From the NCBI RefSeq assembly GCF_024298765.1, contig NZ_CP101210.1: 64,000 nucleotides of DNA, one strand, 5' to 3'. The position numbers were made by a program. The DNA comes from Escherichia coli. GTDB lineage: Bacteria; Pseudomonadota; Gammaproteobacteria; Enterobacterales; Enterobacteriaceae. This document shows, piece by piece, positions 3,001-6,000 of this stretch (within the stretch, counting starts at the first letter, position 1; each line of letters starts with the position of its first letter).

Positions 3001-6000
3001 ACGTTCGTCCGCGGCGATCACCAGAATTTTATGTTTACCGCGATACGGTTTTGGATAGTCCACGCCATCAAGATCAGAGACAGGACTGGTATATTGGCTA
3101 AGCGAATATTCTGAAGGGAAGAATGCATTATCTTCAGCAATATCGACCTGCGGATTTTTACTTGTTTGAACAGTCATAGTGTATTCCTTATTGTTGCTTA
3201 GTTAGGGTAGTCACTATATTTGCGACTGAGCTGGTCGCTATTTTTAACCAGTCTGGAAAATTGAGTCAATATATCGAAAGCGGTAGTCTGCGGGTGTAAG
3301 TATGTAATGATGATGCTGCACTGGTGTTGAATATTATTCACGCCAAATTTTCCTTATTGAGCAACGTCGTCGCAAGTGGCCTCAATGATTTTAGACCATT
3401 ATCAGAGATGCGGGGCGGAGGGAAGAGATTTAGTGCTGTGGAATATTGTGGTGCTGATCAATATTTATATCCCGGATTGGTAGAGAAAAAGCTTATTTCA
3501 TGCACTATTTTTGCAAATATTTCTATATGGGAGGCGTGTTTGTTGCGGATTAATACATAAAGAAATGTATTTGGAGTGTTGGCTGGAAGAGTAGCTGGTA
3601 GAGATATTGTGCCAGGAGGGGCAGGGTAAGGTGCTGTATCGATATGCTTTGGCAATTGCGTGTGCCGCAGATGGAGATGAAATGCCAATAAAAAAGCCTG
3701 AGTTCGATGAGGGACGAACTCAGGCTAGTGTTATGTTTTACAGTAACACGCCGCGGCGCGTTGGCTGATTAGAACTGGTAGACGATACCAAATGCGAGTT
3801 GGTCGTCGGTGTTCAGTCCATGAGCGAGAACATAATCACTCTTATCAAGCAGGTTGATCTGATAAGCGGTATATACGTTCATGTTCTTATTGAAGTAATA
3901 CCAGGTACCGATTTCAATGTAGTTCAGACGATCAGAATCTTTGTAACCTGCTACGTCCAGTGCTTTAGAATAGGAGTAACCGATGGATGGACGCAGACCG
4001 AAGTCGAACTGATATTGCAGAACAGCTTCGAAGTTTTGTGTTTTGTTCACAACATCACCGTCGTCGGAATTCATGTTGTGAGATTCACCGTACATCACAG
4101 CAGCATAGACGTTGTTGGGATCATATTTTGTTGACAGTGCCCAAACTTCTGCTTTTTCACCTTTACTATCACTAGACTGGAAATCAGTACGGTCAGAGTT
4201 TGCGTAAGCACCAGTAAATGAGAAACCGTCAATAGTGTAAGTTACAGATAAACCATGGCCATCGCCATTTGCTTTGTAGTTGCCTGTACCTTCATTTTTA
4301 CCCTGATATTGCAGAGCAAAATTTAGACCTTCAACCATGCCAAAGAAATCTGTGTTACGATAGGTTGCAACACCGTTGGTACGGTTGGTCATGAACAGGT
4401 CAGTACCAGCCCATGAATCACCGCCCCACTCAACAAACATATCAGTAAATGCTTCTGCATCATACGCGACACCGACATTACGACCATAGTCGAATGAACC
4501 AAAATCTTTGTAACTCAAACCAGCATAAGCCAAACGAGTTTGGTCAGGGTTGTGTCTGTTTGATGCTTCCAGGTCTAGTTCAAACTGACCGTAACCAGTC
4601 AATTCAGGGTTGATCTGAGTTTCACCTTTCACGCCTACACGGGCATAAGAGGTATCTTGAGAATTATCGCCTTTTTCACCATTTTCACGGTCGGTCAGAA
4701 TGCGCTCACCAACCATCTTGCCGTACAGATCCAGTTTATTGCCATCTTTATTATAAATTTCAGCCGCATTTGCTGCGCCAGCAACTAATAACGCCGGGAC
4801 CAGCATTGCCAGAACTTTTCTTTTCATTATGTATTCCCTTGTGATTATAATCTTCATGAATATATCAATAAGTGCCGTTATCCAAAAAAAGCACATTTGG
4901 ATACTATTCTATGAAGTTCATTTTATTTTAAAGATTACATGCAACAAATATATTTAAAAGATTTCAAAATGTTTCTAATCTATTTAATATAATTCAGAAT
5001 TATGAATTCTAAACATAAGTATTCATGAAAATTATCAATTCATATCAATATATTATGAGTTTAGCGGAAAGATAGGGGGTATCAATGATTGATGCGCTAA
5101 ACGGCTGGTGTGATCACGCGCACATTAATGAAGGCATAAAAAAGCCGGCATCATGCCGGCCCAAAAAATATAAACAAGACGATAAAAGGCTAATAACGGA
5201 GGCATCATGACACAGAAAAATAAAAAGGTATAATTGTATTCAGTGCTAATATATTGATTAAATGAATTAATAAAGCCGATATCAAAGATAAATAAAATCG
5301 CTCAAAACGATTTTTCCTGTATTCACTGCCGTTGCGCAAAATTTATCTATTTTTTCAAAAAATGATTGAGTCTTGACTGGCTCATTCAATGTGGAAAAAT
5401 GTGACTTTTATCACATAATAGTACTAAGTCTGAATTTTCCGGGTTATCTCAAAATGGAATACGGTTCGACAAAGATGGAAGAGAGGCTCTCTCGCAGCCC
5501 TGGTGGCAAACTGGCTTTGTGAGCTTTCTATACATGGTGTGGCTATTTCGTCTGGGCAATGGCGCGTTACATCTGGGTGATGAGCCGGATCCCCGATGCC
5601 CCCGTGTCGGGATTTGAAAGCGATTTAGGCTCTACCGCGGGAAAGTGGTTAGGGGCACTGGTCGGATTTTTATTTATGGCTCTGGTCGGGGCATTGTTAG
5701 GCAGCATTGCCTGGTACACCCGACCTCGTCCCGCACGTAGCAGACGCTATGAATAAAAACTGCTAAGGTGGCGACTCTTTGGCAACGGAGCGCGTATGGA
5801 CTTACAACACTGGCAGACACAGTTCGAAAACTGGTTGAAAAACCATCATCAGCACCAGGACGCGGCCCATGACGTGTATCATTTTCGCCGCGTCTGGGCT
5901 ACGGCACAGAAGCTGGCGGCAGATGATGACGTCGATATGCTGGTGATTTTAACCGCCTGTTATTTCCACGATATTGTGAGCCTGGCGAAAAATCATCCGC

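What the first reader, a model, noticed from the sequence alone, without database searches (positions are those of the whole stretch)
5341..5558. Perfect CRP site in the intergenic region upstream of the small membrane-protein gene
tgtgacttttatcaca (5400..5415) matches both CRP half-sites exactly and is preceded by TTGACT. In K-12 this intergenic region is said to encode the sRNA RseX, whose sequence I cannot verify from memory, so the site could control either an sRNA or the downstream ORF.
Basis: partly seen in the sequence, partly recalled or inferred. Interest (0 to 1): 0.3.

Follow-up and report, generated by a model that had tools for sequence, protein, structure and literature searches.

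The report
Known CRP repressor site at drpB promoter
The perfect CRP-binding palindrome is real and deeply conserved, but it is the already-published operator through which cAMP-CRP represses the E. coli drpB(yedR)-yedJ operon, not a control element of the RseX small RNA.

Summary
TGTGACTTTTATCACA sits at 5400-5415. It is the only perfect CRP match in the 64-kb window (0.03 expected by chance), and TTGACT lies at 5373-5378 as described.

The window is E. coli, with the gene order yedS – rseX – drpB(yedR) – yedJ – dcm – vsr. rseX maps to 5137-5226 on the minus strand, outside the flagged interval and 174 bp from the site.

The real drpB start is ATG 5454.

The site overlaps both candidate drpB core promoters, so its centre falls at about +0.5 or −18.5. 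That geometry predicts repression.

The literature agrees. Footprint-seq gives a Kd of about 1.9 nM for this exact site. yedRJ was EMSA-positive and de-repressed in Δcrp. An ETEC ChIP-seq peak covers the region.

Across six deep lineages (Escherichia, Citrobacter, Enterobacter, Salmonella) the half-sites are invariant at 10/10 columns, the spacer at 0/6 and the flanks at 1/50. The site persists in loci that lack rseX.

Verdict: real, functional, and already known. Interest is low.

The parts
5400..5415 (.). Perfect 16-bp CRP operator TGTGACTTTTATCACA, centre 5407.5
   Evidence: It is the same site as K-12 2033460-2033475, listed with Kd 1.9 nM in Footprint-seq (PMC12871828). The half-sites are invariant in all 12 anchored sequences.
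5373..5400 (+). drpB promoter candidate (a): -35 TTGACT (5373-5378), 16-nt spacer, extended -10 TGgAAAAAT (5392-5400). Predicted TSS is about 5407, inside the CRP site.
   Evidence: It is the top-scoring sigma-70 candidate in all 7 Escherichia sequences and is invariant across Escherichia apart from an IS1 insertion in one strain. The TSS position is inferred.
5392..5419 (+). drpB promoter candidate (b): -35 TGGAAA (5392-5397), 16-nt spacer, -10 CATAAT (5414-5419). Predicted TSS is about 5426, with the CRP site filling the spacer.
   Evidence: It lies wholly between GTG-1 (5391) and ATG-22 (5454), where PMC7648144 places the promoter. Salmonella has the equivalent TCGAAA-17-TATAAT around its CRP site.
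5454..5756 (+). drpB (yedR), cell-division protein gene. It is a pseudogene in this strain through TGG->TGA at 5520-5522 (W23* of the 100-aa protein).
   Evidence: Alignment to K-12; K-12 annotation; PGAP note 'internal stop' in the 100%-identical strain AR_452; start codon mapped in PMC7648144.
5796..6491 (+). yedJ, HD-domain phosphohydrolase, second gene of the CRP-repressed yedRJ unit
   Evidence: drpB-yedJ synteny holds in 10 of 11 loci, the exception being L004, where yedJ is largely deleted. Table 1 of PMC8085971.
6558..7976 (+). dcm (vsr follows at about 7957-8427), reported on the same long transcript as yedR-yedJ
   Evidence: SMRT-Cappable-seq statement in PMC6131387. No sigma-70 consensus match and only weak terminator-like hairpins on the + strand in 5700-8900.
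5137..5226 (-). rseX sRNA gene, divergent from drpB. Not part of the CRP-controlled unit as far as the evidence goes.
   Evidence: Rfam RF01401, 96.9 bits against a gathering score of 50, full length. Terminator hairpin at 5162-5142.
5109..5124 (.). Second CRP site, TGTGATCACGCGCACA (1 mismatch), between the rseX terminator and the yedS porin gene
   Evidence: The K-12 equivalent has Kd 4.9 nM and is labelled 'yedS' in PMC12871828. It is conserved with at most 1 mismatch and a variable spacer in all Escherichia loci.

Best explanation
The palindrome is a high-affinity cAMP-CRP operator embedded in the core promoter of the drpB(yedR)-yedJ operon, which may extend into dcm-vsr. When cAMP is high (poor carbon source, slow growth), CRP occupies 5400-5415. 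That position covers either the transcription start of the TTGACT-16-TGgAAAAAT promoter or the spacer and -10 of the TGGAAA-16-CATAAT promoter. In both cases CRP would exclude RNA polymerase or block open-complex formation, so the operon is repressed. In glucose or G6P, or in a crp mutant, the promoter is free. Shown here or in the literature: the sequence, in vitro binding, higher expression in a crp deletion, and conservation. Inferred: the exact TSS and steric occlusion as the mechanism.
For: 1. Sequence: a 10/10 half-site match, unique in the window.
2. In vitro binding: Footprint-seq on K-12 DNA lists taTGTGAtaaaagTCACAttt, the reverse complement of this site, with Kd 1.9 nM. That table labels it internal to yedR only because it uses the old 121-codon annotation (PMC12871828; position verified).
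3. Regulation: PMC8085971 Table 1 lists yedRJ as 'Crp repression'. It is one of 20 promoters that bound Crp-cAMP in EMSA and whose expression rose in a crp deletion.
4. In vivo: the ETEC H10407 CRP ChIP-seq peak centre at 2210222 lies 95 bp from the perfect site at 2210119-2210134.
5. Promoter location: PMC7648144 puts the drpB promoter and a RegulonDB TSS between GTG-1 (5391) and ATG-22 (5454), which brackets the site.
6. Geometry: the best sigma-70 candidates place the CRP centre at +0.5 or -18.5 in Escherichia, +0.5 in Enterobacter, -10.5 in Citrobacter and -21.5 in Salmonella. None falls at an activating position.
7. Phylogenetic footprint: across 6 deep lineages the half-sites are invariant at 10/10 columns, the spacer at 0/6 and the flanks at 1/50. 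The site is always 49-79 bp upstream of the start of the tblastn match to DrpB and is present in loci without rseX.
Against: I could not read the precise TSS: the figure is not held as text, and the supplement with the predicted site in PMC8085971 is not held. The choice between the two promoter candidates, and the occlusion mechanism, therefore rest on consensus scoring. The EMSA used a promoter fragment, and no half-site mutant has been reported. The ETEC study assigned its peak to the second, imperfect motif rather than to this one. The promoter hexamers are not at a fixed offset from the site across genera.
Confidence: 0.85

Rival explanations
1. The site controls the divergent sRNA gene rseX, with CRP activating or repressing the rseX promoter.
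For: rseX is the nearest gene on the other strand. rseX and the site co-occur in Escherichia, Salmonella arizonae/diarizonae and C. amalonaticus.
Against: The site centre is about 181 bp upstream of the rseX 5' end here and 181-198 bp in other species, well beyond class I/II positions and not in a constant helical phase. The site is retained in Citrobacter R56 and Enterobacter loci that lack rseX. A regulator-mining study of sRNAs found H-NS/StpA, not CRP, for RseX (PMC8313858).
Confidence: 0.04
2. CRP activates drpB from a class II promoter just upstream of ATG 5454, producing a near-leaderless mRNA. This could also explain the missing Shine-Dalgarno sequence.
For: No credible SD precedes ATG-22 (PMC7648144). 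A site centred 46.5 bp upstream of the ATG would suit a TSS about 5 nt before it.
Against: There is no -10-like hexamer at 5437-5448. Expression rises rather than falls in a crp deletion (PMC8085971). ATG-22 is used efficiently on long leadered transcripts.
Confidence: 0.04
3. The two CRP sites (5400-5415 and 5109-5124, 291 bp apart) act together on the AT-rich, H-NS-silenced yedS-rseX-drpB intergenic region. For example, they could counter H-NS silencing of yedS/rseX while repressing drpB.
For: Both sites bind CRP in the nM range. Both are conserved in Escherichia at a 290-292 bp spacing. The ChIP-seq peak centre lies between them. The intergenic GC content is 29.8% against 49.7% for the window. 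rseX is H-NS/StpA-repressed.
Against: The second site is absent from the Citrobacter, Enterobacter and Salmonella loci, which keep the drpB site, so the two are separable. CRP is not known to bridge distant sites (own knowledge). There are no expression data for yedS.
Confidence: 0.06
4. The palindrome is a chance match with no function.
For: Perfect sites do occur by chance at genome scale; 3 of 100 shuffles of this window produced one.
Against: The half-sites are invariant across four genera while the spacer and flanks are randomised. Binding and regulation have been measured.
Confidence: 0.01

Closest known systems
The CRP site of the E. coli K-12 yedRJ (drpB-yedJ) promoter itself (PMC8085971; PMC12871828)
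   Same: The 16-bp site, both promoter candidates and the 5' UTR are identical to K-12. The only difference in 5370-5460 is one base, at 5386.
   Different: In this strain the first gene of the operon, drpB, carries a premature stop (W23*). The operator now effectively governs yedJ and whatever reads through downstream.
CRP-repressed promoters where the operator overlaps the core promoter or TSS, such as cyaA P2, spf (Spot 42) and gal P2 (own knowledge, not tested here)
   Same: The CRP dimer binds over the -10, spacer or +1 region and prevents productive RNA polymerase binding. Expression is high in glucose and low when cAMP is high.
   Different: Here the operator is a perfect consensus (most repressing sites are imperfect). 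No TSS-resolved or mutational analysis has been published.
Class I / class II CRP-activated promoters (lac, galP1, melR)
   Same: The same protein and the same DNA motif.
   Different: The site is not centred near -41.5, -61.5 or another activating position relative to any credible promoter on either strand, and the measured effect is repression.

Membership tests
CRP (cAMP receptor protein) operator / CRP regulon | Match to the palindromic consensus TGTGA-N6-TCACA | tested here: met
   A 10/10 match at 5400-5415, unique in the window, with 0.03 expected by chance.
CRP (cAMP receptor protein) operator / CRP regulon | Direct binding by cAMP-CRP | not testable with these tools
   Published: Footprint-seq Kd 1.9 nM for the identical K-12 site (PMC12871828), and EMSA of the yedRJ promoter fragment (PMC8085971).
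CRP (cAMP receptor protein) operator / CRP regulon | In vivo occupancy | not testable with these tools
   Published ETEC H10407 ChIP-seq peak centre 95 bp from this site and 196 bp from the second site. The authors assigned the peak to the second motif. This is suggestive but not site-resolved.
CRP (cAMP receptor protein) operator / CRP regulon | CRP-dependent expression of the adjacent gene | not testable with these tools
   Published: yedRJ is classed as Crp-repressed from crp-deletion and carbon-source transcriptomes (PMC8085971).
CRP (cAMP receptor protein) operator / CRP regulon | Evolutionary conservation of the half-sites with a free spacer | tested here: met
   All 12 anchored sequences, from four genera, have perfect half-sites. 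In 6 deep lineages the invariant columns are 10/10 in the half-sites, 0/6 in the spacer and 1/50 in the flanks.
Repression by promoter occlusion | Operator overlaps the -35/-10/+1 of the regulated promoter | tested here: inconclusive
   The consensus-scored promoters put the site centre between +0.5 and -21.5 in every genus. The promoter is published as lying between 5391 and 5454. The exact TSS coordinate was not obtainable.
Class I/II CRP-activated promoter | Site centred at about -41.5, -61.5, -72.5 or further multiples from a TSS | tested here: not met
   No conserved promoter candidate on either strand gives such spacing. The published effect is repression.
rseX promoter element | Located within regulatory reach (about 100 bp or less) of the rseX TSS and co-inherited with rseX | tested here: not met
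   The distance is 181-198 bp. The site is present in two loci that lack rseX.

The most novel reading that the evidence does not exclude
SMRT-Cappable-seq links yedR-yedJ-dcm-vsr in one transcript, and no sigma-70 consensus promoter or strong terminator follows drpB. The perfect CRP operator could therefore make Dcm cytosine methylation and Vsr very-short-patch repair catabolite-repressed. The conserved second site, 291 bp away, could oppositely control the yedS porin. Together they would form a bidirectional cAMP switch around the H-NS-silenced rseX.
Probability: 0.12. Interest if true: 0.4.

Novelty: already known. Interest (0 to 1): 0.12.

Why it matters
There is little here for discovery. 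CRP binding at this site and Crp repression of yedRJ are already in the literature. Three modest points have value.

1. The Footprint-seq table calls the site 'internal to yedR' because of an outdated start codon. With the corrected ATG-22 start, it is a promoter operator.
2. The cross-genus footprint found here is independent support that the published EMSA and transcriptome result reflects a selected function.
3. It links carbon status to a cell-division and Rcs-activating protein (DrpB), and possibly to dcm-vsr.

For this particular strain, the operator outlives its first target gene, which is a pseudogene.

Tried and rejected
- **TSS coordinate.** I looked for the published drpB TSS. The DrpB paper shows it only in a figure. 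The supplementary data of PMC8085971 are not held. A literature search on yedR plus 'transcription start site' gave no coordinate.
- **RseX control.** Rejected on distance and on persistence of the site without rseX.
- **Class II or leaderless activation.** Rejected because there is no -10 element and the published effect has the opposite sign.
- **Weak Rfam hits.** STnc430 (22.5 bits against 47) and RyhB (21.2 bits against 55) are below their gathering scores and are driven by the rseX terminator hairpin.
- **Minus-strand promoters next to the site.** They score poorly and are not conserved.
- **The stop codon as an assembly error.** Rejected because the identical 55-mer occurs in 248 complete genomes.

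Full report
**Observation.** The window reads ...gtcTTGACTggctcattcaatgtggaaaaaTGTGACTTTTATCACAtaatagtac... The 16-mer occupies exactly 5400-5415 and TTGACT occupies 5373-5378. A search for TGTGA-N6-TCACA with no mismatches finds only this site in 64 kb. Dinucleotide-preserving shuffles give a mean of 0.03 matches.

**Locus identity.** The surrounding ORFs and BLAST against complete E. coli genomes identify the region as hchA – yedS (porin) – rseX – drpB (formerly yedR) – yedJ – dcm – vsr. The window is 100% identical over 5100-5800 to strain AR_452.

Rfam places rseX at 5137-5226 on the minus strand, with 96.9 bits against a gathering score of 50 and a full-length match. Its terminator hairpin is at 5162-5142.

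**The 'small membrane-protein gene'.** Alignment with K-12 shows that the gene is drpB, which starts at ATG 5454 in the K-12 annotation (100 aa). This strain has TGG→TGA at 5520-5522, which is W23*. PGAP annotates the identical strain's drpB as a pseudogene with an 'internal stop'. The identical 55-mer containing the stop is found in 248 of 4,685 complete E. coli genomes with a match, so it is a lineage allele and not an error.

Yahashiri et al. (PMC7648144) showed that the old 121-codon GTG start (5391 here) is wrong and that translation starts at ATG-22 (5454). [quoted passage not shown] The CRP site lies inside that 63-bp promoter interval.

**What is already published about the site.**
- The Footprint-seq preprint from the Wade laboratory lists taTGTGAtaaaagTCACAttt, region centre 2033477, Kd 1.9 nM, gene '(yedR)', among 'novel' high-affinity CRP sites (PMC12871828). 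This is the reverse complement of the window site. In K-12 the motif is at 2033460-2033475. The parentheses mean 'internal to the gene', which is an artefact of the superseded start codon.
- Table 1 of PMC8085971 lists yedRJ as 'Crp repression'. It is one of 20 promoters (13 polycistronic, 7 monocistronic) that bound Crp-cAMP in EMSA. Their expression correlated positively with growth rate and rose in a crp deletion.
- CRP ChIP-seq in ETEC H10407 reports a peak at 2210222, labelled 'yedR/ETEC-specific' (PMC4287617). In that genome the perfect site is at 2210119-2210134 and a second site (CGTGATCTCGCGCACA) is at 2210411-2210426, so the peak centre lies between the two.
- SMRT-Cappable-seq found yedR and yedJ on the same operon as dcm and vsr (PMC6131387).
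- A regulator-mining study of sRNAs identified H-NS/StpA, not CRP, as the regulator of RseX (PMC8313858).

**Anatomy and mechanism.** Two sigma-70 candidates flank or overlap the site.
- Candidate (a) is TTGACT (5373-5378), a 16-nt spacer and the extended -10 TGgAAAAAT (5392-5400). An A/T-rich stretch lies upstream. The predicted TSS is about 5407, which puts the CRP centre at about +0.5.
- Candidate (b) is TGGAAA (5392-5397), a 16-nt spacer and CATAAT (5414-5419). The predicted TSS is about 5426, which puts the CRP centre at about -18.5.

Both are compatible with the published promoter interval. In both, bound CRP would overlap RNA polymerase contacts, which fits the published repression. No promoter candidate on either strand places the site at an activating position. 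The exact TSS and the occlusion mechanism are inferred.

Downstream, there is no sigma-70 consensus match and there are only weak terminator-like hairpins on the + strand through dcm and vsr. That is compatible with a long operon.

**Phylogenetic footprint (new here).** A scan of one genome per species for DrpB relatives returned 11 loci:
- six Escherichia, including E. albertii, E. whittamii and cryptic clades;
- Citrobacter sp. R56;
- C. amalonaticus;
- an Enterobacter sp.;
- Salmonella enterica subsp. arizonae and subsp. diarizonae.

Every one has a perfect TGTGA-N6-TCACA 49-79 bp upstream of the start of the tblastn match to DrpB, with different spacers: CTTTTA, TATTTA, TTTTTA, CTTTCA, CATTTG, TTATAA, CTAATA, CTGATA and TAAATA. 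In an ungapped alignment anchored on the site, six deep lineages show 10/10 invariant half-site columns, 0/6 invariant spacer columns and 1/50 invariant flank columns.

In each genus a good -10 hexamer overlaps or abuts the site. It is a TATAAT ending on the first T of the site in Enterobacter, a TATAAT inside the spacer in Citrobacter, and a TATAAT 1 nt after the site in Salmonella. yedJ follows drpB in 10 of the 11 loci; in L004 it is largely deleted. rseX is present in nine of the eleven loci but absent from Citrobacter R56 and the Enterobacter locus, both of which keep the site. Within E. coli and Escherichia, the block TGGAAAAA-TGTGA...TCACA is invariant. All 4,188 E. coli matches to 5370-5432 are at least 95% identical.

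**Conclusion.** The finding is a real, high-affinity, selectively maintained CRP operator in the drpB-yedJ promoter, and it most probably acts as a repressor site. It is not a control element of RseX. All the key functional facts (binding, EMSA, crp-dependent expression) are already published. This analysis adds the corrected gene model for this strain, the reinterpretation of the site as promoter-embedded and not intragenic, and the cross-genus footprint. Novelty: already known. Interest: low.

Noticed in passing
window 5520-5522 (drpB 5454-5756): drpB carries a premature stop (TGG->TGA, W23* of the 100-aa protein) that removes both transmembrane helices unless translation restarts at ATG 5559. 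The identical 55-mer is present in 248 of 4,685 complete E. coli genomes with a match, so a sizeable lineage lacks this cell-division / Rcs-activating protein.
   Followed up: partly
window 5109-5124: A second CRP site, TGTGATCACGCGCACA (1 mismatch), lies 13 bp beyond the rseX terminator and upstream of yedS. The K-12 equivalent has Kd 4.9 nM in Footprint-seq. It is conserved with a variable spacer in all Escherichia loci, 290-292 bp from the perfect site, and absent from the Citrobacter, Enterobacter and Salmonella loci. A weak minus-strand promoter (TTGATA-16-TAAACT, 5085-5058) would put it near -65.
   Followed up: partly
window 3769-4827 (-): The yedS porin gene is intact here (352 aa in the PGAP annotation of the identical strain), whereas it is a pseudogene in K-12.
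   Followed up: partly
window 13468-13483: GGTGACGTGCGTCACA is a one-mismatch CRP site. It corresponds to the yedP site (GGTGACGCGCGTCACA) listed in the ETEC CRP ChIP-seq table.
   Followed up: no
L016 (E. coli PSS-16) about 352-400, equivalent to window about 5330-5378: An IS1 element ends just before GGCTCAT, 20 bp upstream of the CRP site. It replaces the TTGACT -35 box of promoter candidate (a) while leaving the CRP site and CATAAT intact. This is a natural test of which promoter matters.
   Followed up: no
window 5430-5456: The 5' UTR segment AATTTTCCGGGTTATCTCAAAATGG is almost invariant across Escherichia, although it contains no Shine-Dalgarno sequence and the region just upstream of it varies. 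It may be a translation-initiation or regulatory element for the SD-less ATG-22 start.
   Followed up: no
L004 1843-1937; L014 1880-2559: Escherichia sp. MOD1-EC7003 retains only the last ~30 codons of yedJ after drpB. Salmonella arizonae yedJ aligns as two pieces, which may indicate a frameshift.
   Followed up: no
window 4897-5453: The yedS-drpB intergenic region has 29.8% GC against 49.7% for the window. This fits the published H-NS/StpA silencing of rseX.
   Followed up: partly
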